From: a virus
Lineage: Duplodnaviria; Heunggongvirae; Uroviricota; Caudoviricetes
IMG/VR virus record: IMGVR_UViG_2531839440_000003
Location: 1-41,145 of that record
DNA length: 41,145 bases
Strand: one strand, 5' to 3'
This document shows positions 1,307 to 15,744 of the stretch, in pieces. Each line of letters opens with the position of its first letter. Position 1 is the first letter of the stretch. The notes beneath the pieces were generated by a model. It saw nothing but the letters and a program-made list of their open reading frames with translations, was not told the origin of the DNA and did not search any database. A program made the position numbers and the translations under genes.

Positions 1307-3778
1307 TTAAAAATCAACCGGATTCGGGATCAGTTTTTGCCAGATTGCTGAAACGTATTTTGCCTGGTAACGGGCGTCATCAAGTGCATTATGGCGCTCA
1401 CCTTCGAATGGAATAGCCGTTCTGGCATCGAAGTCTATGGCTTTCCCCAGCTCAACGATTGTGCGTACATCGCGATCGTTGTAGTAACGCCACGGGCAGG
1501 GGATCCCCTGCCGTTCGTATGAACGGCGCAAAATCGTGTTGTCGAAGTTGGCTCCATTTCCCCAGACCTGAACAAAAAATTCGCCGGAGTTTTCGTCGAT
1601 AAATTCCCGCAATTGTAACAGTGCATCATCTAACGGGATTTCATCGGTCATAATGGCAGATTGCGCCTCGCGTGATTGCTTAAGCCACCATTTAATGGTG
1701 TCACGATCAATGACTCCGCCAGCAGTTTCCAGATCGATAGTCTTACTAAATTCCGGTCCCATATCTCCGGTTTGCGGATCGAAAAATATTGCACCTATTG
1801 AGATAATCGGGGCATCAGGATTTTTTCCCATGGTTTCAAGGTCGATCATTAGATGGTCACACGTCCTGCTGGTGGATGTGATAACGCGATGACCGTTCAC
1901 CGTAATTAAGGGATCTGCCGTCTCGCCAGTTTCACTATCGCTGGCGTGATCCTGAGCGCTGCCAGCATTCTCCTTGTGTGGGTGTTCAGCGCCTTCCATT
2001 TTCTCCGAATCGTCTTCCTGAACTTCAACCTGGTTCTTGTCATCGAATGTTTCCTGGTATGTTGCGTCGCCCATCACCGCACCACAATCAGGGCAGTTGC
2101 CACCACCGCTCTGACCGCAGGCGGTGCAGATTTTTTCCGGTTCCTGTTGCACTACTGGTTCAGGTTGTTTCGTTTCTGGCTCGTTTTGTTGCGTATTTGG
2201 GCTGTTTTGTTCCGCTTTCTGGTCGTTCTGTTCCGTTTCTTGCTGGTTCTGGTTCACAGTATCGCGGGTCTGGATCCCCTTAACCCATTTCGGATCATTC
2301 GGGTCGCTAATCCCTTCAATAAATTCACCACGTGATGCAGCAAGCAACTTATCGGCGTCAGGCTGGCTGATATTGGCTGCCTGCATAATTTTGTTTACTT
2401 CGTCAGCGGTAACTTTTACCGGTTCTGGCTGTGCGGTCGTGTCAGATGCACCAGTATTTTGTTGTGAACCTGAGTATGTACTGTTTTTGCGGGCGAAATA
2501 TTCTTCTTTCGTGATTTCAGTAGCCCCGGCAGCCAGCGCCTTATCCAGACCAGAAAGTTTGTTTGCGCGACCGTATTTTTCGCCATCCTTGTCGGTGAAG
2601 AGGAAGTAGAACGGCCCCTCACGCTCTACAGATGGTTCGACTTCCACTTTGCATTCGGTTTTTTCGTTGTCCGGAATTGCCGTTTCCACTGCATCAGTTT
2701 CTGGTACTGGCGACGAGAGAGTATCAGTTGCGCTCTGATTTGTTCCTTCATCTTCAAACACGCCCTTTGTAGTCAGGTATTCAGTAATGTATTTGTTCAG
2801 TGCCACAGGATCTTTGTGAATGTCGATCGGACGTTCACGGACAAGGCCAAAAATAGTCTGGCGGTCGTAGCGAAGGGCATCAGGCTGTTTGCGCATCGAT
2901 GCCGAGATACGCTTCCAGTCTTCGCGGTCGTTGTCGATAACTTCATTTTTTGCCCAGCGATGGATGCTGCCGTCAATGTTTCCGGCATCCACATCACCAG
3001 GCCAGAGAGCGTAGGCCAGTTCGTCATCCAGTGTTTTCCATGTCTGCTTGTATTCGCGATGAGTGGCAGCAATGACCGGGTTGATTTTTCCTGTTGAATT
3101 TTCAGTGTTCTGTTGATTGGCTCTGGCGCGGGCGAGATCAACAACAGACGTGTATTTTCCGGTTTCCTTGCGTTCACCTTCGCGACGTTTTTTCCAGATG
3201 CGCATCTCTGCCTGAATTTCGGGCCATTTAGCACCAGGAATACATTTATGCTTAACCCACCCAATGGCGTGCAACTTAAGCTCCGGATACATGGCGTTAA
3301 CTTCTGGCATTTTCATCAACGCTTCAACGATATGTCCGTCGAATGTTGCCATGTCTTCCTGCAACAGTTCCTGTGCACTAATCACCATATCAACGGTGAT
3401 GTTTTCACATGTGTCGAACTTAACCATGACAGCGTTCTGTACTTCAGGGGCCAGCTTGTCAAAAGTGACGTTCATCGGATTTGATTCAGTCTCAACCGGG
3501 ACAAAGGAAGCTGACTCCTCATCCCAGCGGTTTTCCTGCATATATTCAGCATCCCAGGAATCGAGGGCAGGGCGGGGTATACCGGGTTTATCCTCGCAAA
3601 CAAGAAATTTATAAGCGCAGTCCTGAGCAGCCGGATAATGTTCCAGGAATTGCCAGTGAAATTTTGCGCGGGCGCGACGTTCATCACCGGCTTCAATGGC
3701 AGTGGCTACAGCGACTGCACCTTCTTCCTTTATTGCCTGTTCGTCCGGAATGGCGGCGCAAATAAAGACTTTACTCAT
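1307..3778 (-). CDS. Phage exonuclease, C-terminal DEDDh (DnaQ-like) 3'-5' exonuclease domain, with Q/N/E-rich linker and Cys4 zinc ribbon
   Basis: 823-aa ORF; C-terminal motifs DLETMG (Exo I), WGNGANFD (Exo II), HNALDDARY (Exo III); central CTACG...CPDCG zinc ribbon; low-complexity QNxE linker encoded by degenerate DNA repeats near 2100-2300. Confidence 0.8.
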   Translation of the reverse strand: MSKVFICAAIPDEQAIKEEGAVAVATAIEAGDERRARAKFHWQFLEHYPAAQDCAYKFLVCEDKPGIPRPALDSWDAEYMQENRWDEESASFVPVETESNPMNVTFDKLAPEVQNAVMVKFDTCENITVDMVISAQELLQEDMATFDGHIVEALMKMPEVNAMYPELKLHAIGWVKHKCIPGAKWPEIQAEMRIWKKRREGERKETGKYTSVVDLARARANQQNTENSTGKINPVIAATHREYKQTWKTLDDELAYALWPGDVDAGNIDGSIHRWAKNEVIDNDREDWKRISASMRKQPDALRYDRQTIFGLVRERPIDIHKDPVALNKYITEYLTTKGVFEDEGTNQSATDTLSSPVPETDAVETAIPDNEKTECKVEVEPSVEREGPFYFLFTDKDGEKYGRANKLSGLDKALAAGATEITKEEYFARKNSTYSGSQQNTGASDTTAQPEPVKVTADEVNKIMQAANISQPDADKLLAASRGEFIEGISDPNDPKWVKGIQTRDTVNQNQQETEQNDQKAEQNSPNTQQNEPETKQPEPVVQQEPEKICTACGQSGGGNCPDCGAVMGDATYQETFDDKNQVEVQEDDSEKMEGAEHPHKENAGSAQDHASDSETGETADPLITVNGHRVITSTSRTCDHLMIDLETMGKNPDAPIISIGAIFFDPQTGDMGPEFSKTIDLETAGGVIDRDTIKWWLKQSREAQSAIMTDEIPLDDALLQLREFIDENSGEFFVQVWGNGANFDNTILRRSYERQGIPCPWRYYNDRDVRTIVELGKAIDFDARTAIPFEGERHNALDDARYQAKYVSAIWQKLIPNPVDF

Positions 3779-6662: not shown

Positions 6663-6890
6663 ATGTTTAAATCAGACGTAATTAATTTTTATGGGACGAA
6701 AGCCAAAGTAGCGAAAGCTGCTGGTGTTGATCCATCTGCTGTTTCTCAATGGGGGGAACTGGTTCCTGAAGGTCGCGCGATGCGCCTGCAAGAGGCATCC
6801 GACGGGGAACTTCAGTACGACCCCAAAGTTTATGACGAATATCGTAAGGCAAAGCGGGCGGGGCGGTTGAACAATGAAAATCACCCCTGA
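6663..6890 (+). CDS. dicC: DicC/Cro-like small regulator
   Basis: 75 aa from ATG at 6663; segment VPEGRAMRLQEASDGELQYDPKVY matches what I recall of DicC; divergent from repressor. Confidence 0.6.
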   Translation: MFKSDVINFYGTKAKVAKAAGVDPSAVSQWGELVPEGRAMRLQEASDGELQYDPKVYDEYRKAKRAGRLNNENHP

Positions 6891-7395
6891 ACAGGTTTGT
6901 GAGGCTCTGGATGCCTGGGTATGTCGACCAGGAATGACACAGGAGCAGGCGACGATATTAATCACGGAAGCATTCTGGGCTCTGAAAGAACGCCCGAACA
7001 TCGATGTTCAACGCGTCACGTTTAATGATGGCGAGGTTGATCAACGGGCGCTGGGCGTTAACCGGGTGAAGATATTCGAACGCTGGAAAGCTATCGACAC
7101 CAGGGATAAGCGGAAAAAATTCACGGCGCTGATTCCGGCAATTATGGAGGCTATCCGGATTAATGATTTCAGGTTGTATCGTGAAATTACTGACGGAAAA
7201 AGCATTACGTACATGATCGCCGGGTTAAATAAAGAATATGGCGATGTGGTGGAATCCGGACTGCTTTTTGCAGATCCAGCTGTAGTGGATCGTGAAACTG
7301 ACGAACTTATAGAAAAAGCAATTGCTTTCAAGCTTGCGTATCGACAGCAATACCAACAAAAAGCTGGATGGAATTATGAGTCTTCTTTTTGCTGA
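6874..7395 (+). CDS. Hypothetical early regulatory protein (possibly YdaT/CII-like)
   Basis: 173-aa ORF between cro-like and replication genes; family assignment tentative. Confidence 0.4.
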   Translation: MKITPEQVCEALDAWVCRPGMTQEQATILITEAFWALKERPNIDVQRVTFNDGEVDQRALGVNRVKIFERWKAIDTRDKRKKFTALIPAIMEAIRINDFRLYREITDGKSITYMIAGLNKEYGDVVESGLLFADPAVVDRETDELIEKAIAFKLAYRQQYQQKAGWNYESSFC

Positions 7396-8341
7396 ACGCC
7401 CACTGGTTATAAACACGCAGCTGGCAATGAAAATTGGCTTAAACGAAGCCATTGTTTTGCAACAACTGCACTACTGGTTGAGAGATACCAACTCCGGCAT
7501 GGAATGTGATGGTGTTCGCTGGATTTATAACACAACGGAACAATGGCTGGAACAGTTCCCGTTCTGGTCAGAGTCAACGTTAAAGCGCGCGTTTGCAAGT
7601 CTGAAAACGCTGGGGCTTTTGCGTTGTGAAAAGCTCAATAAATCAAAGCGCGATATGACCAATTTCTACACGATCAACTACGGGAACGAGCTTTTAGATG
7701 GTGGCAAAGTGAGCGAATCCATCGGTTCAAAATGCGCCGCTCCATCAGGTCAAAATGACACGATGGAAGAGATCAAAATGAAACGCTCCATTGGTTCAAA
7801 ACGACTCAATGTCATCGGGTCAAAATGGCCTGATGATCTTACAGAGAATACAACAGAGATTACTACAGAGAATAAAAACACTTCTCGTCCGGAAGCTTCG
7901 CAACCGGACCCGCAGACGGTTGAACAGGATTTTTTAACCCGACACCCTGACGCGGTTGTGTTCAGTGCAAAAAAACGCCAGTGGGGCAACCAGGAAGATT
8001 TGGCGTGTGCGCAGTGGATCTGGGGACGAATCGTGAGTCTTTACGAGCAGGCCGCCAGCGATGATGGCGAGATTTCGCGACCGAAAGAACCCAACTGGAC
8101 CGCATGGGCCAACGACGTGCGCACAATGCGGATGCTGGATGGCAGAACTCACAGACAAATTTGTGAAATGTTTGGTCGGGTGCAGCGGGATCCATTCTGG
8201 GTAAAAAATATCATGAGTCCGTCAAAGCTTCGCGAAAAATGGGATGAACTGGTTATCCGCCTGGGGCGTTCGTCTGTACAGCGTTGTGTGAATCATATTT
8301 CTGAGCCGGATACCGAAATTCCGCCGGGGTTCAGGGGGTAA
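7376..8341 (+). CDS. Replication initiation protein (iteron-binding, O-like/DnaD-like)
   Basis: ATG at 7376; located upstream of DnaC-like loader; gene body contains iterons 7718..7827. Confidence 0.7.
   Translation: MSLLFAERPLVINTQLAMKIGLNEAIVLQQLHYWLRDTNSGMECDGVRWIYNTTEQWLEQFPFWSESTLKRAFASLKTLGLLRCEKLNKSKRDMTNFYTINYGNELLDGGKVSESIGSKCAAPSGQNDTMEEIKMKRSIGSKRLNVIGSKWPDDLTENTTEITTENKNTSRPEASQPDPQTVEQDFLTRHPDAVVFSAKKRQWGNQEDLACAQWIWGRIVSLYEQAASDDGEISRPKEPNWTAWANDVRTMRMLDGRTHRQICEMFGRVQRDPFWVKNIMSPSKLREKWDELVIRLGRSSVQRCVNHISEPDTEIPPGFRG
7718..7880 (+). repeat. Replication origin: five 17-bp iterons at 23-bp spacing followed by A/T-rich ACAGAGAAT repeats
   Basis: Iterons TCCATCGGTTCAAAATG (7718), TCCATCAGGTCAAAATG (7741), degenerate GAAGAGATCAAAATG (7766), TCCATTGGTTCAAAACG (7787), GTCATCGGGTCAAAATG (7811); then ACAGAGAATA copies at 7841..7877. 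Confidence 0.6.
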
Positions 8342-8347
8342 CGGGCC

Positions 8348-9094
8348 ATGAAAAATATCGCGACAGGTGGTGTTCTTGAGCGTATCCGTAAGCTGACCCC
8401 GCAGCATGTAATCGCGCCGTACCGGACAGTGGACGAGTGGCGCGAGTGGCAACTGGCAGAAGGGCGAAAACGTAGCGAGGAGATCAACCGCCAGAATCGC
8501 CAGTTGCGGGTGGAAAAAATCCTGAATCGTTCGGGCATCCAGCCTCTGCACAGCAAATGCTCGTTTGCGAATTATCAGGTGCAGAACGACGGGCAAAAAC
8601 ACGCGCTGAGCCAGGCAAAATCTATCGCTGACGAACTGATGACCGGGTGCACGAATTTTGTGTTCAGCGGTAAGCCGGGTACCGGAAAGAACCACCTTGC
8701 AGCCGCCATTGGCAATCATCTTCTGGCGAAAGGTCGCAGCGTGATTGTGATAACGGTGGCTGATGTGATGCTGGCGTTACACAACAGCTACGACAACAAA
8801 AACTCAGGCGAAAAATTTTTACAGGGGTTGTGTGATGTTGACCTGCTTGTCCTGGATGAAATCGGAATGCAGCGGGATACGCGCAACGAGCAGGTCACAC
8901 TGAACCAGATAGTCGACCGCAGAACGGCTTCGATGCGTAGTGTCGGAATGCTGACGAACCTGAACCACGTAGCGATGAGTACGCTTCTTGGCGAGCGTGT
9001 GATGGACCGCATGGTCATGAACGGTGGTCGCTGGGTGAATTTTAACTGGGAGAGCTGGCGTTCGAATGTCAGACACCTGAGGGTTGTGAAGTAA
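8348..9094 (+). CDS. DnaC-like replicative helicase loader (IstB-type AAA+ ATPase)
   Basis: Walker A FSGKPGTGKNHLAAAIG, Walker B DLLVLDEIG; follows initiator gene. Confidence 0.85.
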   Translation: MKNIATGGVLERIRKLTPQHVIAPYRTVDEWREWQLAEGRKRSEEINRQNRQLRVEKILNRSGIQPLHSKCSFANYQVQNDGQKHALSQAKSIADELMTGCTNFVFSGKPGTGKNHLAAAIGNHLLAKGRSVIVITVADVMLALHNSYDNKNSGEKFLQGLCDVDLLVLDEIGMQRDTRNEQVTLNQIVDRRTASMRSVGMLTNLNHVAMSTLLGERVMDRMVMNGGRWVNFNWESWRSNVRHLRVVK

Positions 9095-9108
9095 TTTCAG
9101 GAGGACTT

Positions 9109-9525
9109 ATGGTAAAAGTTTTTACTCCCGAACAACGGGAAGAAGTAAAGGCGCGTATTGTGGAACTGGTACGCAGAGATGGTAGGAAAACGCGTAAACA
9201 ACTGGAAAATGAAACAGGGGCGACGAGACATCTGATTGAAGTTCTGGCGAAAGAACTGGTAGACAGTGGTGTTGTATATGGTTCAGGGCATGGAATATTC
9301 CCTTCTGAGCAGGTACGTAAAGACTGGATAAAAGCCCATAAAGAGATGTCTAAAGGTGCAGCGAAAAAGAAGAGCGACCCTGGCCTGATTTATTCATTAC
9401 CAGATGGAGAGATACGCCACTACGACAGGCGTCAGAACATAATCTGTCTCGAGTGCCAGAAAAGCAAGGTTATGCAGCGTGTGCTGGCATTTTATCAGGG
9501 TAATTTTCAGGAGGTGATGGCGTGA
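9109..9525 (+). CDS. Hypothetical protein
   Basis: 138-aa ORF with AGGAGG RBS; translationally coupled to next gene. Confidence 0.5.
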   Translation: MVKVFTPEQREEVKARIVELVRRDGRKTRKQLENETGATRHLIEVLAKELVDSGVVYGSGHGIFPSEQVRKDWIKAHKEMSKGAAKKKSDPGLIYSLPDGEIRHYDRRQNIICLECQKSKVMQRVLAFYQGNFQEVMA

Positions 9526-9818
9526 GGGTGAGGGTTTATATCGCCGGTCCAATGACGGGGTATGAAAATTTCAACCGTGAGGCGTTTCACAAGGCAGAAG
9601 AGGAACTGAAACGGGAAGGGCATACCGTTTTAAATCCGGCTGTGCTTCCGGATGGGCTGACACAGCCGCACTACATGGATATTTGCATGGCAATGATTCG
9701 TTGTGTGGATGCGATTTACATGCTGAAAGGCTGGCAGCGGTCAGCGGGCGCTAAGGCAGAGCTGGCACTGGCGGAGAAACTGGGGCATGCGGTGATTTAT
9801 CAGGAGGTGGCTCAATGA
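9522..9818 (+). CDS. DUF4406-like protein (nucleoside deoxyribosyltransferase-like fold, tentative)
   Basis: 98 aa, begins MRVRVYIAGPMTGYENFNREAF, typical of the DUF4406 family as I recall it. Confidence 0.5.
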   Translation: MRVRVYIAGPMTGYENFNREAFHKAEEELKREGHTVLNPAVLPDGLTQPHYMDICMAMIRCVDAIYMLKGWQRSAGAKAELALAEKLGHAVIYQEVAQ

Positions 9819-10276
9819 GAGAGGTTAACTATGAGGCGCTTCGTGAGGCAGCACAAAACTATCAGTCGACGCTGGCGTGGTATCAGGCTATCCCGGACAG
9901 CCCAAATGCTGAACGGGATTGTGATGCGGCTCTTGCTGCGTTTAAGCGTCACATCCGTCATCGGGAAGCGGATATTATCGCTGATTTGCTGGATGGACTG
10001 GAAGAAGCAAAATCACAACTCAACGAGCAGCGTGAGTATTACGAAGGCGTTATCTCTGATGGGAGCAAGCGTATTGCTGAACTGGAAGCGCGGGAAGTTC
10101 AATTACCGACTCGCTACGACCTTCGATATGGACACCCGGTAAATGCAGATGAGCGACATGTCATGATACCTAAAGAAAATGGCAGTTGGCTTTACCTGAT
10201 TGACCTAGAACACGCATTACGCGTCGCTGGCATTCGCATCAAAGGAGAGGAGCATGGAAATAAAACCAGAGGATGA
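9815..10276 (+). CDS. Hypothetical protein
   Basis: 153-aa ORF, start overlaps previous stop (ATGA). Confidence 0.5.
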   Translation: MREVNYEALREAAQNYQSTLAWYQAIPDSPNAERDCDAALAAFKRHIRHREADIIADLLDGLEEAKSQLNEQREYYEGVISDGSKRIAELEAREVQLPTRYDLRYGHPVNADERHVMIPKENGSWLYLIDLEHALRVAGIRIKGEEHGNKTRG

Positions 10277-10610
10277 GTTAAGCAATATCGTTTTATTTCC
10301 GGTAAAAGAGGATGACCCTCGTAATCAGGTTAATTTTCTTTATGAGCCATCGGAAAGACCATATTGTCATCACGCCTCTGTCCGGGTTGACGAAAAAGAG
10401 CGTCAGGTCCGCTGTAAAATCTGCGGTGCAGTTGTGGAGCCATTTGACTGGATGCTCTCTGTGGCGAAAAGAGAAACCAGACTGGCAGATGATGTAAGGC
10501 TCTTGCGTCAGGAGGAGCGGGAAAGGCGAAAAAATATAGAAAAGCTAATTCAGATTGAGCGTAACGCGAAAGCGCGGATACGCAGGGCGACAAAATCCAG
10601 AACTGAATAA
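10254..10610 (+). CDS. Hypothetical zinc-ribbon protein
   Basis: 118 aa with paired Cys/His cluster CHH...CKICG and basic C-terminal tail. Confidence 0.5.
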   Translation: MEIKPEDELSNIVLFPVKEDDPRNQVNFLYEPSERPYCHHASVRVDEKERQVRCKICGAVVEPFDWMLSVAKRETRLADDVRLLRQEERERRKNIEKLIQIERNAKARIRRATKSRTE

Positions 10611-10703
10611 TTAAATTTAGCTCTGTTAAAAATTTAATCCTTAACCGGAGGGATTTCTGCACCCTCAGAACATCAGGAGGCCGCCCGAAAGGGCGGTAGT
10701 TAA

Positions 10704-10886
10704 ATGCGAAAGTTTAAAATAATTATTGAAACGGGAATAGCCGGTGGAGATTTCGAGGATGAATTCGAAGTGGATGATGATGCGACGCCTGATGAAATAC
10801 ATGACGAAGCAAAAGATATTTTCTTTAACTACTGCAATTACTCATATCACGAAATAAAAGACGAAGAGGAAGAACAAAATGGCTGA
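10704..10886 (+). CDS. Very acidic 60-aa protein
   Basis: About 40 percent D/E; SD AGGAGG (10675..10680) separated from AUG by hairpin CCGCCCGAAAGGGCGG. Confidence 0.45.
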   Translation: MRKFKIIIETGIAGGDFEDEFEVDDDATPDEIHDEAKDIFFNYCNYSYHEIKDEEEEQNG

Positions 10887-11055
10887 TTTTGGTTCAACTA
10901 AATACAACGTCAGTTTTGAAGAATGGCATGAACTGTTAATGGACTATGCAGAGTTACGTGGTGGCAGTGCTGCTGATGCTGAAGCATGGCGTGATGATTA
11001 TGAAGCAGGAAAAACTCCGGTCGAAGCATATTGTGATGAGTGGGGCGATGAATGA
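10879..11055 (+). CDS. Acidic 58-aa protein
   Basis: Hand-found (below track cutoff): MADFGSTKYNVSFEEWHELLMDYAELRGGSAADAEAWRDDYEAGKTPVEAYCDEWGDE; overlaps both neighbours. Confidence 0.4.
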   Translation: MADFGSTKYNVSFEEWHELLMDYAELRGGSAADAEAWRDDYEAGKTPVEAYCDEWGDE

Positions 11056-11567
11056 GCGAGATTAATTATCAGGAAGGGCATGAAACGGCAGGGCAGGCAA
11101 AACCAGTTGCATGGCGATATCGCTACGTGAAAAAAGACGTTACAGACTTTCAGGGGAAGCCGTGGGCTGGTGACTGGAAATATGTACCGACAAAAGAGGA
11201 TTGTAACGACAGGCCGAACTATGAAATTCAGGCCTTATTCATCGGCCCGCCAGTCCCGGTGACATCAGAAGGACTGGTTAAAGCCGTGCGCTTTTATGAA
11301 CAGGTAAAGCGTGAGAATCCGCCAGTCGAAACAGGAGAATGGAAGGATGCTGTTGACTGGGTGCTCAGAGAGGCCTGCTGCGCTGCCATTCTGGGTAAAG
11401 CTGACAATCCACCAGCATCCGGCAATCAGGTTAGCGAATTAACAATGTGGGTTAAACGACTGGTCAGTCAACTGAAAAAAGCTCAGCCGGACTGCAAATT
11501 ACCGGAGAAGGCGATGGATTACCTGAAACGAAATGGACTGATAAGCGTGGAGGATGTTTTACGATGA
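11052..11567 (+). CDS. Hypothetical protein
   Basis: 171-aa ORF, start overlaps upstream stop (ATGA). Confidence 0.5.
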   Translation: MSEINYQEGHETAGQAKPVAWRYRYVKKDVTDFQGKPWAGDWKYVPTKEDCNDRPNYEIQALFIGPPVPVTSEGLVKAVRFYEQVKRENPPVETGEWKDAVDWVLREACCAAILGKADNPPASGNQVSELTMWVKRLVSQLKKAQPDCKLPEKAMDYLKRNGLISVEDVLR

Positions 11568-11687
11568 ATATTTAGACTAAAGAGTTTGTAACGCTATGTA
11601 AGTGATTTTTTCTGGTTTAGATATTTATATGTCCGGCCAAATTGAGGTGTGTTTAAATGTTATTGCACATTGATTGTAGGGGGAATA

Positions 11688-11867
11688 ATGAAAAACGCAT
11701 TGCAGTTTTTGTTTGTTGCGTTCTGGTTGTTCGCATCATGTATGCCCATCATCTTCACAGCAAGGTATATGGAAAAAATTGATGTTTTGATATTAATGTT
11801 TGGACATATAAATGCCCTTTTTTTAGGGGTGTTCATGGCGGTCATGTGCATTGAATACTGGCGGTAA
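11688..11867 (+). CDS. Small two-helix membrane protein in low-GC island
   Basis: 59 aa from ATG 11688 (GGGGGA RBS); two hydrophobic helices; AT-rich surroundings. Confidence 0.4.
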   Translation: MKNALQFLFVAFWLFASCMPIIFTARYMEKIDVLILMFGHINALFLGVFMAVMCIEYWR

Positions 11868-12126
11868 ATACAGCGAACGCCATTGGTTTAGTTGGATATT
11901 TACTGTGCCGGACAAAAACGGTTTGCGGGGAAATCTTAGTTAAGTAGAATAACTGCGGGTGCTTGAGGCTATCTGTCTCAGGCATGAACACCAAAAGGCA
12001 GATAGAGAAAAGCCCCAGTTAACATTACGCGTCCTGCAAGACGCTTAACATTAATCTGAGGCCCAATCTATGTCTCACAAATGTAGGTTAGCCTCTTACG
12101 TGCCGAAAGGCAAGGAGAAGCAGGCT

Positions 12127-12282
12127 ATGAAGCAGCAAAAGGCGATGTTAATCGCCCTGATCGTCATCTGTTTAACCGTCATAGTGACGGCACTGGTAAC
12201 GAGGAAAGACCTCTGCGAGGTACGAATCCGAACCGGCCAGATGGAGGTTGCTGTTTTCGTAGACTACGAATCTAGAGAGTAA
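12127..12282 (+). CDS. hok: Hok/Gef-family type I toxin
   Basis: 51 aa MKQQKAMLIALIVICLTVIVTALVTRKDLCEVRIRTGQMEVAVFVDYESRE, closely resembling Hok (..[34 protein letters not shown].AYES); AAGGAG RBS; in-frame upstream extension from 12070. Confidence 0.8.
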   Translation: MKQQKAMLIALIVICLTVIVTALVTRKDLCEVRIRTGQMEVAVFVDYESRE

Positions 12283-12291
12283 GAGTGACCT

Positions 12292-12313
12292 GGCGGGAGA
12301 GTAATCTCCCGCC
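12292..12313 (+). other. 3' stem-loop of hok mRNA (fbi-like element)
   Basis: 9-bp stem GGCGGGAGA/TCTCCCGCC with 4-nt loop, 10 nt after hok stop; no T-run. Confidence 0.45.
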
Positions 12314-12498
12314 ACCTCTGATGTGTCGGCATCCTCAACGCACCCGCACTTAACCCGCTTCGACGGTTTTTGTTTTATTTTCAATGCGTTTTAACTTTTT
12401 TAAGACACCGGATATAGAATCCAAAACACTTAAGTAGCGCGCAGGGATAAGAGGGATGGCCCCCTGAAGGGGAGAGCTAATTATCCGGAAGGATTCTG

Positions 12499-12762
12499 AT
12501 GATGAACATCGAAGAACTGCGTAAAATTTTTTGTGAAGATGGCCTCTATGCTGTGTGCGTTGAAAATGGAAATATTGTTAGTCATTGCCGCGTTCTGTGT
12601 TTGCGAAAGAAGCAAAGAAAGAGTGGGGCTGCGTTAATTAATTTTGTGGATGCTCGGGTGACGGACGGATTTATCTTGCGCGACGATGAGTTTGCCACTT
12701 CATTACAGGCATTGAAAGAGATCGGAATAAAAGCTGGCTTTTCTGCTTTTTCAGAAGAATAA
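12499..12762 (+). CDS. Hypothetical protein (positionally Rem-like)
   Basis: 87-aa ORF next to hok as in Qin (rem-hokD); identity not verified. Confidence 0.4.
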   Translation: MMNIEELRKIFCEDGLYAVCVENGNIVSHCRVLCLRKKQRKSGAALINFVDARVTDGFILRDDEFATSLQALKEIGIKAGFSAFSEE

Positions 12763-12828
12763 ACTCATCTACAATCTTGCGCGGGGCTGAACTCCCGCTG
12801 AGTAACACCGTGCCACCGGAGAAAACCG

Positions 12829-13107
12829 ATGGCACGCAACGCAAAATATTACAATCATAATAATTCGACCGTTCTTGCCTGCACGCACGAGCGGTATCCT
12901 CACACATTCAAATCTGACTGGTATCAGCACGACCCCTGCACCGAAGAACAGGCCGAGTGGCTGATTCAGAACTACCGCAGACGTGGGTATGAGTTTAGGA
13001 AAGCCCTCAGCCTCGATTATCGTCTCTGGATAATCTACGTCAGACTCCCTTATTCCGAACGCCCACCGCGTCCGTCCCGCACATTCCAGCAACGGATCTG
13101 GAGGTAA
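12829..13107 (+). CDS. Hypothetical protein
   Basis: 92-aa ORF in nin-like region. Confidence 0.45.
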   Translation: MARNAKYYNHNNSTVLACTHERYPHTFKSDWYQHDPCTEEQAEWLIQNYRRRGYEFRKALSLDYRLWIIYVRLPYSERPPRPSRTFQQRIWR

Positions 13108-13108
13108 C

Positions 13109-14167
13109 GTGCGGGTATTACTTCGATCTGTTCCGGTACCGGAACTTGGGCTGGTGGTCCTTAAGCCTGGTCGTGAATCCATGCAGGTATTCCGCAGCGG
13201 TCGTGTACTGGTGGAGCCGGAACCGAAAAGCATGCGCGGTCTGCCGTCCGGAGTCGTTCCTGCCGTTCGCCAGCCATTGGCGGAGGATAAATCACTACTG
13301 CCATTTTTCAGCGATGAGCGGGTGATTCGTGCTGCTGGCGGTGCTGGTGCGCTGTCTGACTGGCTGTTACGCCACGTTAAATCCTGCCAGTGGCCTCATG
13401 GTGACTATCATCACAGTGAAATCGTCATACATCGTTACGGTACCGGCGCGATGGTGTTGTGCTGGCACTGCGACAACCAGCTGCGTGACCAGACCTCCGA
13501 ATCACTCGGGCAACTTGCTCATCAAAACCTGTCAGCATGGATGATTGACGTCATACGCCATGCAGTGAATGGCACGCAGGAGCGGGAATTATCGCTGGCT
13601 GAATTGTGCTGCTGGGCTTCTGTAAATGATGTAGTGGATGCCATGACCGAAAATATGGCGCGTCGAATCCTGAAGCTTCCGAGTGAAAAAATCCGCTCAG
13701 TATACCGCGAGAGCGACATCGTACCGGGAGAGCAGACCGCCATCAGCATACTGAAGCAGCGCACAAAAAATATTGCGCCGTTGCCTCACGCCCACCAGCA
13801 ACAGAATCCACCACAGGAAAAGACGGTGGTCAGCATTGCCGTTGATCCGGAGTCACCGGCTCAGTATCTCCAGCGCCAGAAACCACAACGGGAAGATATG
13901 CCTGTATACACGCGTTGGGTAAAAACGCAGAAATGCATGACGTGTGGCAATCAGGCAGATGATCCGCATCACATCATTGGTCATGGACTGGGAGGGATGG
14001 GAACAAAGGCTGATGATTTGTTTGTTATTCCGCTGTGCCGTAAATGCCATAGCGAACTACACGCCGGGGTAAAAGATTTTGAAGAAAAACACGGCAGCCA
14101 GCTGTTGTTGCTGATTCGTTTTTTAATGCACGCGAGAAATTCGGGTGTCCTGAAGTGGAAAGCATGA
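13109..14167 (+). CDS. DUF968-family phage protein (YdfU-like)
   Basis: 352 aa; C-terminal Cys/His cluster CMTCGN...HHIIGHGLGG...CRKCHSELH; directly upstream of rusA. Confidence 0.6.
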   Translation: MRVLLRSVPVPELGLVVLKPGRESMQVFRSGRVLVEPEPKSMRGLPSGVVPAVRQPLAEDKSLLPFFSDERVIRAAGGAGALSDWLLRHVKSCQWPHGDYHHSEIVIHRYGTGAMVLCWHCDNQLRDQTSESLGQLAHQNLSAWMIDVIRHAVNGTQERELSLAELCCWASVNDVVDAMTENMARRILKLPSEKIRSVYRESDIVPGEQTAISILKQRTKNIAPLPHAHQQQNPPQEKTVVSIAVDPESPAQYLQRQKPQREDMPVYTRWVKTQKCMTCGNQADDPHHIIGHGLGGMGTKADDLFVIPLCRKCHSELHAGVKDFEEKHGSQLLLLIRFLMHARNSGVLKWKA

Positions 14168-14533
14168 ATGACTGAACGCATAGAATTTGTTTTGCCTTAC
14201 CCGCCAACGGTGAACACTTACTGGCGACGTCGTGGCAGCACATATTTTGTATCAAAAGCCGGTGAGCGTTATCGCCGGGATGTGGCGCTTATTGTTCGCC
14301 AGCAGCGGCTGAAATTAAACCTGTCCGGAAGGCTGGCGATAAAGATTATTGCAGAGCCACCGGATAAACGTCGTCGTGACCTGGACAATATCCTGAAAGC
14401 ACCACTGGATGCGCTGACGCATGCCGGACTTCTCATAGACGACGAGCAGTTTGATGAAATTAATATTGTGCGCGGTCAGCTCGTTCCTGGGGGGCGGCTG
14501 GGCGTGAAGATTTACAAAATTGAGAGTGAGTGA
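14168..14533 (+). CDS. rusA: Holliday junction resolvase RusA
   Basis: 121 aa; LPYPPTVNTYW and RRDLDNILKAPLDALTHAGLLIDDEQ, matching the RusA family; sits before Q-like gene. Confidence 0.85.
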   Translation: MTERIEFVLPYPPTVNTYWRRRGSTYFVSKAGERYRRDVALIVRQQRLKLNLSGRLAIKIIAEPPDKRRRDLDNILKAPLDALTHAGLLIDDEQFDEINIVRGQLVPGGRLGVKIYKIESE

Positions 14534-15084
14534 TCGTAAATATGATATACCCGGAAATTACAGGCAAAAGCGGCGAGCATTTACGTCTAAAAACGCTGGA
14601 AGCCGTCTGGATCCAGGGGAAATTACGGATGTGGGGGCGTTGGTCGTACATAGGTGGTGGCAAACCAGGAAATATGTTCAATCAGTTGCTGACATCCAAA
14701 AAACTGACAAAAACCGCGATCAATGAAGCCCTGCGTAGAATCAGGGAGTCAGGGATTGATAAGCCAGAGCTGGAAGCATTCTTGCGAGAGATGATCGCTG
14801 GCAGACAGAAGAGCTGGTTGTCTCACTGTACTGATGCAGAGGCGTTACGCATTGATGGGGTGATAAGTAAAGCGCTTGCACGTTATCCTGGATTGATTGA
14901 TATCCTGCGGCAAAGATACGAAGGGCGGGGGATGAGTAAACGCAAAATGGCTGAATTGTTGAATGAGGTTCACCCTGAGTGGTGCTATACAACATGCCGC
15001 AATCGTATAGATATGTGGCTGAGAATAGCTGAGTTTATTCTGTATCCACTGATGCGAGATGCATTTTCTTTTACTGACGCTTAG
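14530..15084 (+). CDS. Putative late-gene antiterminator (Q-like)
   Basis: 184 aa immediately upstream of a promoter plus short-transcript terminator; assignment mainly positional. Confidence 0.5.
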   Translation: MIVNMIYPEITGKSGEHLRLKTLEAVWIQGKLRMWGRWSYIGGGKPGNMFNQLLTSKKLTKTAINEALRRIRESGIDKPELEAFLREMIAGRQKSWLSHCTDAEALRIDGVISKALARYPGLIDILRQRYEGRGMSKRKMAELLNEVHPEWCYTTCRNRIDMWLRIAEFILYPLMRDAFSFTDA

Positions 15085-15249
15085 AATCTGGAGGGCGTTT
15101 GTTGTTGCACGAAGAGGATTTTTGGCTGGTAGTAAGGTTTATGCAGTTTTAGAAAAAAAGCTTGTATTTTTAGCCATAAACTGTTTCAATCCAGCTACGC
15201 TTCGCAAAGCTGTACCGCGAGGCGAATAGCAGACATGGACACCTGAAAG
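15085..15249 (+). promoter_or_regulatory. Late promoter / qut-like region
   Basis: AT-rich intergenic region with TTGCAC and TTGTAT -35-like hexamers, located between Q-like gene and tR'-like terminator. Confidence 0.4.
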
Positions 15250-15273
15250 AACCCGCTTTATGCGGGTTTTTTT
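15250..15273 (+). terminator. Intrinsic terminator (tR'-like)
   Basis: 7-bp stem AACCCGC/GCGGGTT, 5-nt loop, T5 run. Confidence 0.65.
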
Positions 15274-15396
15274 ATGCCTGAAAAACGGCACAGAACATTA
15301 AACGCGCTGGTAGTTGTGAATACTGGTCTTTCAGCTTGCTGGCTTTTTGGACAAGAGTTATTGGTATGTCACGTTAACCGGAAAAGGGAAAAAGGC

Positions 15397-15594
15397 ATGC
15401 TAAAACAGCAGGATATGACCGAAACCGCCAGAGTGGTGTTTAATGAATTAAGCGTCACCGAACCGGCGACCGTCGGGGAAATTGCGCAGAATACTTACCT
15501 TTCACGCGAACGCTGCCAGTTAATACTGACTCAGCTTGTTATGGCGGGTCTGGCAGATTATCAGTTCGGTTGTTACAGACGCCTTCCGCAGTGA
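15397..15594 (+). CDS. Small hypothetical protein (possible winged-helix)
   Basis: 65 aa from ATG at 15397; the longer track ORF starts inside the terminator T-run. Confidence 0.4.
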   Translation: MLKQQDMTETARVVFNELSVTEPATVGEIAQNTYLSRERCQLILTQLVMAGLADYQFGCYRRLPQ

Positions 15595-15744
15595 AGGCTT
15601 TTTAATTTGTGGTAATGGGCGGCTGGTGGGTGTTAGCGGCACCTGCCAGCCATCTGCTCATGCGTTGGGGTCACAAGCAAACCTCAGGCCCATCTGCTTT
15701 GCGCAAAAGCGGTATGAGCCTATCAGAGAAGTGCTTATTGATCT

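What the first reader, a model, noticed from the sequence alone, without database searches (positions are those of the whole stretch)
11930..12330. hok/sok-type type I toxin-antitoxin locus in the nin region
The 51-aa product is a clear Hok/Gef-family toxin with an in-frame upstream extension (mok-like leader from 12070), an upstream region with complementary CTATCTG/CAGATAG segments, and a 9-bp 3' stem-loop without T-run. Qin carries hokD next to rem and ydfU, matching the neighbouring genes here. The Sok antisense RNA should be on the minus strand around 12040..12130 but I cannot place its promoter confidently.
Basis: partly seen in the sequence, partly recalled or inferred. Interest (0 to 1): 0.45.

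Follow-up and report, generated by a model that had tools for sequence, protein, structure and literature searches.

The report
Intact prophage hok/mok/sok toxin-antitoxin module
This is an ordinary, complete copy of the well-known hok/sok killer-peptide and antisense-RNA module carried by an E. coli lambdoid prophage, about 93% identical to the experimentally studied hokW-sokW of Shiga-toxin phages.

Summary
Window 11957-12345 (+) is a full hok mRNA. It carries a 51-aa Hok/Gef toxin (12127-12282) and an in-frame mok frame (12070-12282). All the canonical RNA switches are there: tac, metastable hairpin, ucb, mok SD, Sok-target hairpin, dcb, 3' protective stem-loop and fbi. The antisense Sok gene lies at 12078->12008 (-), and its promoter (12085-12113) is base-for-base identical to the mutationally validated sokW promoter.

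Evidence:
- Pfam HOK_GEF scores 78 bits.
- Rfam RF01794 scores 120 bits. The hit is on the sense strand, so it matches the hok leader and not Sok itself.
- DNA is 92.6% identical to 933W hokW/mokW/sokW.
- Six E. coli chromosomes hold 100% identical copies.
- Covariation across 56-155 homologous loci supports every helix.

Corrections to the finding:
- Sok is not at 12040-12130.
- The element runs from about 11922 to 12381, so fbi (12333-12345) and the terminator lie outside the stated 11930-12330.
- The "9-bp stem-loop without T-run" is the hairpin that ends the processed, active mRNA. It is not a terminator.

The neighbours (a Rem homologue and a DUF968/YdfU protein) match Qin. Unlike K-12 hokD, this copy keeps the whole regulatory leader. 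One blemish is a degenerate terminator after fbi.

Verdict: already known, low interest.

The parts
11922..11950 (+). hok promoter: weak -35 (TTTGCG, 11922-11927), 17-bp spacer, -10 TAGAAT (11945-11950)
   Evidence: Inferred from its position 7 nt upstream of the conserved mRNA 5' end, which is where the Rfam model starts (11957). The sequence is conserved with 933W. The consensus scan missed it because the -35 matches only 3 of 6.
11957..12381 (+). Full-length hok mRNA (5' end G11957; 3' end somewhere in the T-rich tract after the degenerate terminator)
   Evidence: The Rfam model starts at 11957. The MFE of 11957-12380 is -156.1 kcal/mol (z -5.8) and pairs the 5' end with fbi. Homology with 933W runs from 11914 to 12356.
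11957..11968 (+). tac (translational activator element), GGGTGCTTGAGG
   Evidence: It pairs with fbi in the full-length fold, with ucb in truncated folds and with 11975-11985 in nascent folds. All three pairings are conserved in 56 homologues. Element definitions are from PMC9841398.
11975..11985 (+). Partner of tac in the metastable hairpin of the nascent transcript (11959-11969 with 11975-11985)
   Evidence: Prefix folds form this hairpin. It is 93.3% paired in A4 against 23-54% when slid, with compensatory changes at 2 pairs.
11969..12005 (+).
   Evidence: Helix 2 is 97.1% paired and 3 of its pairs change on both sides.
12010..12016 (+). ucb (anti-SD of mok), AAGCCCC
   Evidence: It pairs with the mok SD (GAGGC, 12058-12062) in the closed form and with tac in truncated folds. 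The tac/ucb stem is 99.7% paired in 56 sequences.
12008..12078 (-). Sok antisense RNA, 71 nt: a 14-nt single-stranded 5' tail, then a long hairpin followed by UUUU
   Evidence: Mapped from the sokW annotation of AF125520. The fold is -29.2 kcal/mol, z -5.3. The same architecture occurs in 78 unique variants. The Sok strand is more stable than its sense complement in 78 of 78. Expression was not tested here.
12085..12113 (-). Sok promoter: -35 TTGCCT (complement of 12108-12113), 17-bp spacer, -10 TAACCT (complement of 12085-12090); +1 at 12078
   Evidence: It lies in the stretch (from 12082 on) that is identical to 933W/Sp5. In Sp5, mutating TAGGTTAG (window 12084-12091) abolished antitoxin activity (primers YO-421/422 in PMC8621323). 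Across 156 loci the hexamers are conserved as TAnnnT and TTGnnn with a 17-18 bp spacer.
12057..12062 (+). mok Shine-Dalgarno region (TGAGGC)
   Evidence: It lies 9 nt upstream of ATG 12070, is near-invariant (0.03 bits) and pairs alternately with ucb and dcb.
12058..12095 (+). Sok-target hairpin of the open form: GAGGC/GCCUC base, 9-bp inner stem (12065-12073 with 12081-12089), loop CUCACAA (12074-12080) with a YUNR motif (CUCA)
   Evidence: Fold of -13.3 kcal/mol, z -3.1. It appears in truncated and prefix folds. All 67 unique homologous segments fold into a single hairpin closed by GAGGC/GCCUC.
12070..12282 (+). mok reading frame (70 codons, in frame with hok)
   Evidence: It matches mokW of 933W. 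An ATG 57 nt upstream and in frame occurs in 94 of 156 loci; R1-type loci have it 58 nt upstream in another frame.
12090..12095 (+). dcb (AGCCTC), which pairs with the mok SD in the open form and overlaps the Sok -10/spacer on the other strand
   Evidence: Definition from PMC9841398.
12112..12117 (+). hok Shine-Dalgarno sequence (AAGGAG)
   Evidence: It lies 9 nt upstream of ATG 12127 and is invariant in A4.
12127..12282 (+). hok toxin gene, 51 aa: MKQQKAMLIALIVICLTVIVTALVTRKDLCEVRIRTGQMEVAVFVDYESRE
   Evidence: Pfam PF01848 at 78.7 bits. It shares 48 of 51 residues with HokW and 46 of 51 with K-12 HokD. The identical DNA is annotated as a Hok/Gef family protein in RefSeq.
12292..12313 (+). 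3' stem-loop (9 bp, loop GUAA): by analogy, the protective hairpin at the 3' end of the processed, translatable mRNA
   Evidence: Fold of -21.5 kcal/mol, z -5.8. Helix 20 has 6 of 9 pairs with two-sided changes. The role is inferred from R1 (PMC9841398).
12333..12345 (+). fbi (fold-back inhibitory element), CCTCAACGCACCC, which pairs with tac over 12 bp with one bulged C
   Evidence: RNAduplex finds the same partner in 77 loci, and the partner covaries with tac across subfamilies. Helix 1 is 93.8% paired.
12352..12381 (+). Degenerate intrinsic terminator (AACCCGCTTCGACGG followed by a T-rich run)
   Evidence: Its fold is only -3.1 to -4.1 kcal/mol (z -0.2), against -12 to -15 kcal/mol for AACCCGCTTCGGCGGGTT in most relatives.

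Best explanation
The region is a complete, apparently intact hok/mok/sok type I toxin-antitoxin cassette of the hokW/hokD lineage. It sits in the nin-equivalent region of an E. coli lambdoid (Qin/DicA-like) prophage.

Mechanism. The anatomy is shown here; the dynamics are inferred from R1 hok/sok and Sp5 hokW-sokW.
1. A weak promoter (-10 at 11945-11950) makes a stable mRNA of about 390-425 nt that starts at G11957.
2. During transcription the 5' tac element is held in a metastable hairpin (11959-11985).
3. In the finished transcript, tac pairs with fbi (12333-12345) and ucb (12010-12016) masks the mok SD. Neither ribosomes nor Sok can then act on the mRNA.
4. Slow 3' exonucleolytic trimming back to the 12292-12313 hairpin removes fbi.
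5. tac then switches to ucb. The mok SD pairs with dcb and forms the target hairpin 12058-12095, whose loop holds a YUNR motif.
6. If Sok is present, its 5' tail docks on that loop. Sok is a 71-nt, probably unstable RNA made from a stronger convergent promoter at 12085-12113.
7. The resulting duplex covers the mok start and SD and is cut by RNase III, so mok and the translationally coupled hok stay silent.
8. If Sok supply stops, mok and hok are translated. The 51-aa Hok peptide inserts into the inner membrane and kills or permeabilises the cell.

Biological role, inferred by analogy with Sp5: Hok is produced after prophage induction and accelerates lysis and phage release. Stabilisation of the prophage may add to this.
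For: - Toxin: Pfam HOK_GEF at 78.7 bits. The protein shares 48 of 51 residues with HokW and 46 of 51 with HokD.
- Leader: Rfam RF01794 at 120 bits over 11957-12132.
- Close relatives: DNA is 92.6% identical to 933W, where mokW, hokW and sokW are annotated. In Sp5, toxicity, Sok-promoter-dependent neutralisation, partial RNase III/Hfq dependence and production after induction were shown by experiment (PMC8621323).
- Sok promoter: it lies in the stretch identical to 933W.
- Sok fold: 5' tail plus hairpin plus U-run, z -5.3. The architecture recurs in 78 unique variants. The antisense strand is the more stable one in 78 of 78 (-25.0 against -14.3 kcal/mol).
- End-pairing: the MFE of the full-length mRNA pairs tac with fbi. 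tac and fbi covary across five subfamily types.
- Whole structure: 86.5% of cells paired against 35-43% when slid, with 47 pairs changed on both sides.
- Alternative pairings: tac/ucb is 99.7% paired, SD/dcb is conserved, and the metastable hairpin is 93.3% paired. Truncation switches the predicted fold to the open form.
- mok: its start position is conserved in 94 of 156 loci.
- Definitions of the elements and of the switch are from PMC9841398.
Against: - No expression or toxicity data exist for this allele.
- The intrinsic terminator that follows fbi in most relatives is degenerate here (-3 to -4 kcal/mol, no better than shuffles). The 3' end of the transcript is therefore uncertain and read-through into the rem homologue is possible. 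933W lacks that terminator entirely and its locus still works (PMC8621323).
- The allele has a 1-nt deletion at 12328 and a GT insertion after the stop codon relative to most relatives.
- Chromosomal hok loci of K-12 were reported as inactive for post-segregational killing (cited in 10.1101/2025.08.07.668861, and in PMC5630033).
- The consensus promoter scan found neither promoter, because each has one hexamer matching only 3 of 6.
- Hok carries T39M relative to HokW, although Met at this position occurs in other homologues.
Confidence: 0.9

Rival explanations
1. The locus is a decaying, functionally silent chromosomal relic, as reported for K-12 hokA, hokC, hokD and hokE. It is retained only because the prophage is young.
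For: - The terminator is degenerate.
- There are small allele-specific indels in the 3' UTR.
- The close relative M7424 'hokD' has a stop codon in the mok frame, which shows that such loci do decay.
- The literature reports chromosomal hok loci as inactive for PSK.
Against: - Every regulatory element and both reading frames are intact.
- The Sok promoter matches the validated sokW promoter exactly.
- tac/fbi is of the commonest type, found in 77 loci.
- No IS element or truncation is present, unlike K-12 hokD, which has lost everything upstream of about 12112.
- 42 of 45 tested Hok homologues were toxic wherever they were located (10.1101/2025.08.07.668861).
Confidence: 0.08
2. The molecular machine is the same, but its main role is prophage or host-genome stabilisation (post-segregational killing of cells that lose the prophage) or abortive-infection defence against other phages. 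Under this reading it does not mainly help lysis on induction.
For: - The classical role of R1 hok/sok is plasmid maintenance.
- The 933W annotation says 'prophage maintenance'.
- hok genes are enriched about four-fold in prophages (10.1101/2025.08.07.668861).
- Exclusion of phage T4 by R1 hok/sok is established knowledge recalled by me; I did not check it here.
Against: - The only direct experiment on a close relative found no growth effect of deleting the locus. It did find an induction-linked role: Sok disappeared, Hok was produced in a RecA-dependent manner, and half as many phage were released without the locus (PMC8621323).
- hok is not enriched near defence systems, according to a section heading of the preprint.
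Confidence: 0.3
3. The locus is an orphan hok gene without a working antisense partner. Under this reading it is controlled only by upstream transcription, like K-12 hokD, which lies in the relBEF operon.
For: - Its closest chromosomal namesake, K-12 hokD, lacks sok and mok.
- The Rfam 'sok' hit is on the sense strand, so it does not by itself show an antisense gene.
Against: - The window keeps the 155 nt of leader that K-12 lacks.
- The convergent promoter hexamers, spacing, 5' tail and hairpin-U-run are all conserved.
- Strand asymmetry favours an RNA selected on the minus strand in 78 of 78 variants.
Confidence: 0.03

Closest known systems
hokW-mokW-sokW of Stx2 phage 933W / Sakai prophage Sp5 (AF125520; Takada et al. 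2021, PMC8621323)
   Same: - 92.6% DNA identity across the whole cassette, from promoter to fbi (window 11914-12356).
- Hok shares 48 of 51 residues.
- mok starts at the same place and is in frame.
- The Sok promoter lies in an identical stretch.
- Sok is 71 nt with the same hairpin.
- Both are carried by lambdoid phages.
   Different: - Six of the first 16 nt of the Sok 5' tail, the recognition region, differ; one further difference lies in the hairpin loop.
- Hok has T39M, E50R and K51E.
- The genomic position differs: the nin region here, the right end of the prophage next to a large late ORF in 933W.
- Homology ends right after fbi. The window has a decayed Qin-type terminator there, and 933W has unrelated sequence.
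hokD (relF) of cryptic prophage Qin, E. coli K-12
   Same: - The synteny matches: hok, then rem, then ydfU (DUF968). Rem is 85% identical.
- Hok shares 46 of 51 residues.
- The 3' UTR, fbi and downstream sequence are shared.
   Different: K-12 hokD has relB-relE in place of everything upstream of about window 12112, so it has no tac, ucb, sok or mok start. The window carries the complete leader and looks like the undamaged form of that locus. The K-12 terminator is intact, and the window's is degenerate.
hok/sok of plasmid R1 (the family prototype)
   Same: - The set and order of elements are the same: tac, metastable hairpin, ucb, Sok-complementary hairpin, mok SD, target hairpin, dcb, hok SD, hok, 3' hairpin, fbi.
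- The Sok promoter has the same geometry (TTGnnn, 17-18 bp, TAnnnT).
- R1-type loci were recovered with the same DNA pattern and align over their full length.
   Different: - HokW shares only 44% protein identity with R1 Hok (PMC8621323).
- In R1-type loci the mok ATG lies 58 nt upstream of the hok ATG and is in a different frame. Here it lies 57 nt upstream and is in frame.
- tac/fbi is GGCGCUU.../...AAGCGCC in R1 type against GGGUGCUUGAGG/CCUCAACGCACCC here.
- The R1-type Sok candidate in my set (L092) has a shorter hairpin, 58 nt in all against 71.
- R1 is plasmid-borne, and this locus is prophage-borne.

Membership tests
hok/sok (Hok/Gef) type I toxin-antitoxin family | A hydrophobic toxin ORF of about 50 aa that matches the Hok/Gef profile | tested here: met
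   PF01848 at 78.7 bits against a cut-off of 22. The NCBIfam Hok subfamily model scores 52.8 bits, below its strict cut-off of 73.
hok/sok (Hok/Gef) type I toxin-antitoxin family | An overlapping mok frame that starts about 57-58 nt upstream of hok and has its own SD | tested here: met
   ATG at 12070, SD at 12057-12062, 70 codons. The same position is used in 94 of 156 loci, and R1-type loci use 58 nt.
hok/sok (Hok/Gef) type I toxin-antitoxin family | A convergent cis-antisense Sok gene with promoter, single-stranded 5' tail and hairpin-U-run terminator, complementary to the mok translation-initiation region | tested here: met
   Promoter at 12085-12113 in the stretch identical to validated sokW. 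Fold as. The design is conserved in 78 variants, and strand asymmetry holds in 78 of 78. Only the sequence design was tested; transcription was not observed.
hok/sok (Hok/Gef) type I toxin-antitoxin family | Long-range pairing of the mRNA 5' end with its 3' end (tac/fbi) | tested here: met
   The pairing is present in the MFE. It covaries across five tac/fbi types. Helix 1 is 93.8% paired, with UA-to-CG and GC-to-AU exchanges.
hok/sok (Hok/Gef) type I toxin-antitoxin family | Mutually exclusive alternative pairings: metastable tac hairpin, ucb with mok SD (closed form), tac with ucb and SD with dcb (open form) | tested here: met
   Prefix and truncation folds show the switch. Definitions are from PMC9841398.
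hok/sok (Hok/Gef) type I toxin-antitoxin family | A stable stem-loop downstream of the hok stop codon that ends the processed mRNA | tested here: met
   12292-12313, -21.5 kcal/mol, z -5.8. Six of 9 pairs covary. Processing itself is not testable here.
hok/sok (Hok/Gef) type I toxin-antitoxin family | A match to the curated RNA model of the locus (Rfam RF01794) | tested here: met
   120.1 bits against a gathering score of 59, full model length, on the sense strand.
hok/sok (Hok/Gef) type I toxin-antitoxin family | An intrinsic terminator directly after fbi | tested here: inconclusive
   The window has only a weak remnant (-3 to -4 kcal/mol, z -0.2). Most relatives have a strong one, and the functional 933W/Sp5 locus has none.
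hok/sok (Hok/Gef) type I toxin-antitoxin family | Hok is toxic; Sok neutralises it; the duplex is cut by RNase III; Sok is unstable while hok mRNA is stable | not testable with these tools
   Toxicity, Sok-dependent neutralisation and partial RNase III dependence were shown for the 92.6%-identical Sp5 locus (PMC8621323). Nothing has been shown for this allele.
hokD (relF) locus of Qin-type prophages | Position immediately upstream of rem and ydfU (DUF968) in a DicA/DicC-type lambdoid prophage | tested here: met
   Rem is 85% identical. DUF968 scores 211 bits. The K-12 gene order is. dicC-side genes lie upstream in the 97-100% identical E. coli copy.
hokD (relF) locus of Qin-type prophages | K-12-type architecture: hok fused behind relBE, without sok or mok | tested here: not met
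   The window has the full leader in place of relE. It is therefore the intact hok/sok form and not the K-12 relBEF arrangement.

The most novel reading that the evidence does not exclude
Among 91 close relatives of this cassette, the hok CDS, the Sok hairpin and the promoters are almost frozen (about 0.08-0.09 bits per site). The 27-nt patch 12063-12089 is the most variable part of the locus (0.64 bits), yet it always keeps a hairpin. That patch is the Sok 5' tail, the target-hairpin stem and loop, and the first mok codons.

The most novel reading that the evidence does not exclude is this. The patch is under diversifying selection as a specificity code that insulates co-resident hok/sok copies from each other's Sok. 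E. coli genomes carry a median of 2 and up to 9 matching places. Under this reading, the Sok of this allele, which differs from SokW at 6 of its first 16 nt, would not neutralise hokW or other resident copies.

A second possibility follows from the orientation of the cassette. It lies in the sense direction within the early-right/nin transcription unit. Read-through transcription after induction could collide with the convergent Sok promoter. That would be a direct mechanism for the Sok loss seen after induction in Sp5.
Probability: 0.3. Interest if true: 0.35.

Novelty: already known. Interest (0 to 1): 0.12.

Why it matters
It matters little as a discovery. The family, its mechanism and a 93%-identical phage copy are already described, and the Hok ORF of the identical sequence is annotated in RefSeq.

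It has some value for annotation. RefSeq marks only the 51-aa CDS, while the functional unit is about 460 bp and includes mok, the Sok gene and the tac/fbi switch. None of these is annotated in the identical genomes.

The copy also shows what the truncated K-12 hokD locus looked like before relBE replaced its leader. The hypervariable Sok-recognition patch and the conserved TACG editing codon give cheap, testable hypotheses about cross-talk between copies and about toxin activation.

Tried and rejected
1. The sigma-70/terminator consensus scan of 11800-12500 found neither the hok nor the Sok promoter. It reported only an in-CDS pseudo-terminator and a promoter-like site upstream of rem. Both real promoters have one hexamer that matches only 3 of 6.
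2. My first, ungapped search for the fbi partner picked TGTCAGGCATCC, 11 of 12 with G-U pairs, just upstream of the true fbi. RNAduplex with bulges showed that CCTCAACGCACCC is the conserved, covarying partner. The window allele carries a 1-nt deletion in the alternative site.
3. From memory I first assigned ucb to AGCCTCTTAC and dcb to GTAAGAG at the stop codon. PMC9841398 showed that ucb is the anti-SD at 12010-12016 and dcb is AGCCTC at 12090-12095. The helix 12093-12099 with 12279-12285 is in the MFE, but it is nearly invariant and so uninformative.
4. The low-threshold Rfam scan added only sub-threshold noise (ceN48, and CsrC on the 3' hairpin).
5. I tested whether the TACG editing site sits in a stable anticodon-like hairpin. 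The local fold is no better than shuffles.
6. I compared the terminator after fbi with relatives. It is degenerate here, which does not decide whether the locus works.
7. I assumed that L002 was identical to the window throughout. It is collinear at 97-100% only over about 6800-17100, so I used its annotation only within that span.
8. Two reference-coordinate errors produced no data.
9. The protein-database, structure-prediction and fold-search tools were not used, because the Pfam and DNA-level identities were decisive.
Full report
**What is in the sequence**

ORF 12127-12282 (+) encodes a 51-aa hydrophobic peptide, MKQQKAMLIALIVICLTVIVTALVTRKDLCEVRIRTGQMEVAVFVDYESRE. It matches Pfam PF01848 (HOK_GEF) at 78.7 bits against a cut-off of 22. 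An ATG at 12070 opens a 70-codon frame that is in frame with hok.

Rfam RF01794 ('sok') matches 11957-12132 over its full length, at 120.1 bits against a gathering score of 59. The hit is on the plus strand and ends at the hok AUG. The model therefore describes the hok mRNA leader and not the antisense RNA. The hit proves a hok/sok-type leader, but by itself it says nothing about Sok.

- CTATCTG (11969-11975) and CAGATAG (11999-12005) belong to a 10-bp helix.
- GGCGGGAGA/TCTCCCGCC (12292-12313) is a 9-bp hairpin (-21.5 kcal/mol, z -5.8) with no T-run after it.

**Closest relatives**

Megablast of 11900-12400 finds 79 phage records. These include 933W, VT2-Sakai (Sp5) and many Stx phages at 92.6% identity over 11914-12355. 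In AF125520 that stretch is annotated as mokW, hokW and the 71-nt 'SokW antisense RNA'.

Among complete E. coli genomes, 4938 of 5426 have a match. The median is 2 places per genome and the maximum 9. Six chromosomes carry a 100% identical copy, annotated only as 'Hok/Gef family protein'.

One of these copies, NZ_AP022161, is collinear with the window at 97-100% over about 6800-17100. There the locus lies downstream of YdaT-like, DnaC-like ATPase, DUF977, DUF4406 and Ea22-like genes. It lies upstream of a rem-like gene, DUF968, RusA, DUF1133, a methyltransferase and three tRNAs. That is the region between the replication genes and the Q position of a lambdoid prophage, which is the nin-equivalent region. 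A related strain has an annotated Q antiterminator right after RusA.

**Comparison with Qin**

K-12 has the order relB-relE-hokD-rem-ydfU. The window ORF 12499-12762 is 85% identical to Rem, and 13109-14167 is a DUF968/YdfU-type protein.

The alignment shows that K-12 shares sequence with the window only from about 12112 (the hok SD) onward. Upstream of that point K-12 has relE. The window therefore carries the roughly 155 nt of leader that K-12 hokD has lost, and it represents the intact form of that locus. Hok shares 48 of 51 residues with HokW and 46 of 51 with K-12 HokD.

**Placing Sok**

I transferred the 933W annotation through the pairwise alignment. This puts Sok at 12078->12008 on the minus strand.

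Its promoter has a -10 of TAACCT (complement of 12085-12090), a 17-bp spacer and a -35 of TTGCCT (complement of 12108-12113). This stretch is identical between the window and 933W. In Sp5, replacing TAGGTTAG (window 12084-12091) abolished the antitoxin effect, and Sok supplied in trans partly restored it (PMC8621323, text and primers YO-421/422).

The 71-nt RNA folds into a 14-nt free 5' tail followed by a long hairpin and UUUU (-29.2 kcal/mol, z -5.3).

**The hok mRNA and its switch**

The element definitions come from Le Rhun et al. 2022 (PMC9841398).
- In the closed full-length mRNA, tac pairs with fbi and ucb masks the mok SD.
- After 3' trimming, tac pairs with ucb and the mok SD pairs with dcb. 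This allows both translation and Sok binding.
- A metastable tac hairpin forms during transcription.

All of these elements are found in the window.
- The MFE of 11957-12380 (-156.1 kcal/mol, z -5.8) pairs GGGUGCUUGAGG (11957-11968) with CCUCAACGCACCC (12333-12345) and GCCCC (12012-12016) with GAGGC (12058-12062).
- Short prefixes fold 11959-11969 onto 11975-11985.
- Truncation to 12332 or 12326 switches to GGGUGCUU pairing with AAGCCCC (12010-16).
- In the 12332 truncation and in the 12100 prefix, the hairpin 12058-12095 also forms, with a GAGGC/GCCUC base, a 9-bp inner stem and the loop CUCACAA containing the YUNR motif CUCA.

**Comparative test**

I scanned the genome and viral collections for the pattern AGCCTCTTAC-N6-16-AAGGAGAAG. 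This yielded 155 unique loci with a Hok-like ORF, including R1 Hok itself. One ORF in the set looks unlike Hok and is probably a chance match to the pattern.

- **tac/fbi.** RNAduplex between the 5' 13 nt and the 3' UTR finds a partner in 151 loci, and the partner changes together with tac.

| tac | fbi partner |
|---|---|
| GGCGCTTGAGG | ..AAGCGCC |
| GGGCGCCTGAGGC | GCCTTCAGGCGCCC |
| GGGTGCTCTGGAT | ATCCATGAGCACCC |
| GGGTGCTTGAGAC | TCTCAACGCACCC |
| GGGTGCTTGAGGC (window type, 77 loci) | CCTCAACGCACCC |

- **Full-length structure.** On a 56-sequence alignment (A4) the window's full-length structure has 86.5% of cells paired, against 35-43% when partners are slid. It has 47 pairs and 216 cells with two-sided changes, against 25-31 pairs and 80-98 cells in the slid controls. 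No shuffle of 500 reached the observed values.
- **Open form.** The open-form elements are 88% paired overall and tac/ucb is 99.7% paired.
- **Metastable hairpin.** It is 93.3% paired.
- **Caveat.** The structure was derived from one of the aligned sequences and the sequences are related. The percentages therefore lean in its favour. The compensatory exchanges between subfamilies are the stronger evidence.

**Comparative evidence for Sok**

At fixed offsets the antisense -10 reads TAnnnT in 155 of 156 loci, with TAACCT in 96. The -35 reads TTGnnn in 153, with TTGCCT in 102. The spacer is 17 bp in 118 loci and 18 bp in 35.

All but one of the Sok candidates printed fold as a 5' tail plus hairpin plus U-run; the set holds 78 unique candidates, and the exception is L036, whose upstream region differs. 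In 78 of 78 the antisense strand folds better than its sense complement, with means of -25.0 and -14.3 kcal/mol. This asymmetry is what one expects if G-U pairs are tolerated on the strand that is actually under structural selection. The variants are related, so the count is not a probability.

**mok**

An ATG 57 nt upstream of hok and in frame occurs in 94 of 156 loci. R1-type loci have it 58 nt upstream in another frame. In 38 loci no ATG-initiated frame is found. The position of the mok start is conserved across frames while the frame, and so the peptide, is not. This fits the published view that mok serves to couple translation.

**Allele-specific features**

- The terminator that follows fbi in most relatives (AACCCGC-TTCG-GCGGGTT plus a T-run, -12 to -15 kcal/mol) is degraded here to AACCCGCTTCGACGG. 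That remnant folds at -3 to -4 kcal/mol, which is no better than shuffles.
- 933W lacks that terminator altogether, because homology stops right after fbi, and yet its locus works.
- So the lesion does not argue strongly against function, but it leaves the 3' end uncertain.
- Hok T39M is a state seen in other homologues.

**Mechanism and role**

The molecular mechanism given as the best explanation rests on two things. One is the anatomy shown here. The other is experiments on R1 (as summarised in PMC9841398) and on Sp5.

In Sp5 the following were shown (PMC8621323):
- HokW is toxic and sokW counteracts it.
- RNase III and Hfq contribute to the antitoxin effect.
- Mitomycin C makes sokW RNA disappear while hokW mRNA persists.
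- HokW appears in the inner membrane in a RecA-dependent manner, about 1 h before the endolysin.
- Deleting the locus halves phage release.

By analogy I favour an induction-linked lysis-helper role here, at about 0.5-0.6. Prophage stabilisation or abortive infection are the alternatives. None of this has been tested for this allele.

**Verdict**

The finding is correct and the element is ordinary. It is a known kind of module and a close allele of a characterised one, and its toxin CDS is already annotated in identical genomes. The points worth keeping are:
- the corrected coordinates of Sok and of the element's span;
- the note that Rfam's 'sok' model matches the sense strand;
- the observation that the Sok-recognition patch (12063-12089) is the most variable part of an otherwise frozen cassette;
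- the decayed terminator.

Noticed in passing
window 11688-11867 (+): An unannotated 59-aa, very hydrophobic ORF (MKNALQFLFVAFWLF...CIEYWR) lies just upstream of the hok promoter, in a stretch of only 34-38% GC, with a GGGGGA SD-like motif before it. It is conserved at 93-95% aa identity in three E. coli phages, and in at least two of them it sits directly beside hok. The identical RefSeq copy has no gene call there. It may be a small membrane protein.
   Followed up: partly
window 12264-12270 (codon 47 = 12265-12267): The Hok Tyr47 codon is TAC inside CUACGAA. [quoted passage not shown] Some homologues hard-code Cys at this position. The flanking UAGA/UCUA could form an anticodon-like stem, but the local fold is no more stable than shuffles.
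   Followed up: partly
window 12352-12381: The intrinsic terminator after fbi is degenerate in this allele: a G-to-A change and the loss of G residues give AACCCGCTTCGACGG, at -3 to -4 kcal/mol. Most relatives have a strong hairpin of -12 to -15 kcal/mol. Read-through into the rem homologue is possible.
   Followed up: yes
window 12063-12089: Among 91 close relatives this 27-nt patch (Sok 5' tail, target hairpin and first mok codons) is the most variable part of the cassette. It has 0.64 bits per site against 0.08-0.09 for the Sok hairpin and the hok CDS, and the 12-nt peak starts at 12073. The hairpin is kept in all 67 unique variants. This suggests that Sok/target specificity is diversifying.
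   Followed up: partly
window 11914-12356 versus L001 (933W) 2501-2940: Homology with 933W begins just upstream of the hok -35 and ends right after fbi. The shared block therefore equals the functional cassette. It sits in different places in the two phages: the nin region here, and the right end next to a large late ORF in 933W. It behaves like a portable moron.
   Followed up: partly
window 11957-12132 (+): Rfam RF01794, named 'sok antitoxin (CssrC)', matches the sense strand and ends at the hok AUG. The model covers the hok mRNA leader and not the antisense RNA. This is a trap for automated annotation of strand and coordinates.
   Followed up: yes
window 12391-12420 (+): A promoter-like site, TTAACT-18-TAGAAT, lies between the hok 3' end and the rem homologue at 12499-12762. 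It could give rem its own promoter.
   Followed up: no
L004 (E. coli M7424) 3160-3382: A close relative annotated as 'hokD' has a 2-nt deletion and a 1-nt insertion in the leader, which put a stop codon in the mok frame. In all, 38 of 156 loci lack an ATG-initiated mok. This shows either decay or use of alternative starts in part of the family.
   Followed up: partly
window 16844-17090 (+): Three tRNA genes lie in a row downstream of the DNA methyltransferase. They are annotated in the near-identical E. coli copy as tRNA-Ile, tRNA-Arg and tRNA-Arg. This is the usual tRNA island upstream of the late region of Stx-like lambdoid phages.
   Followed up: no
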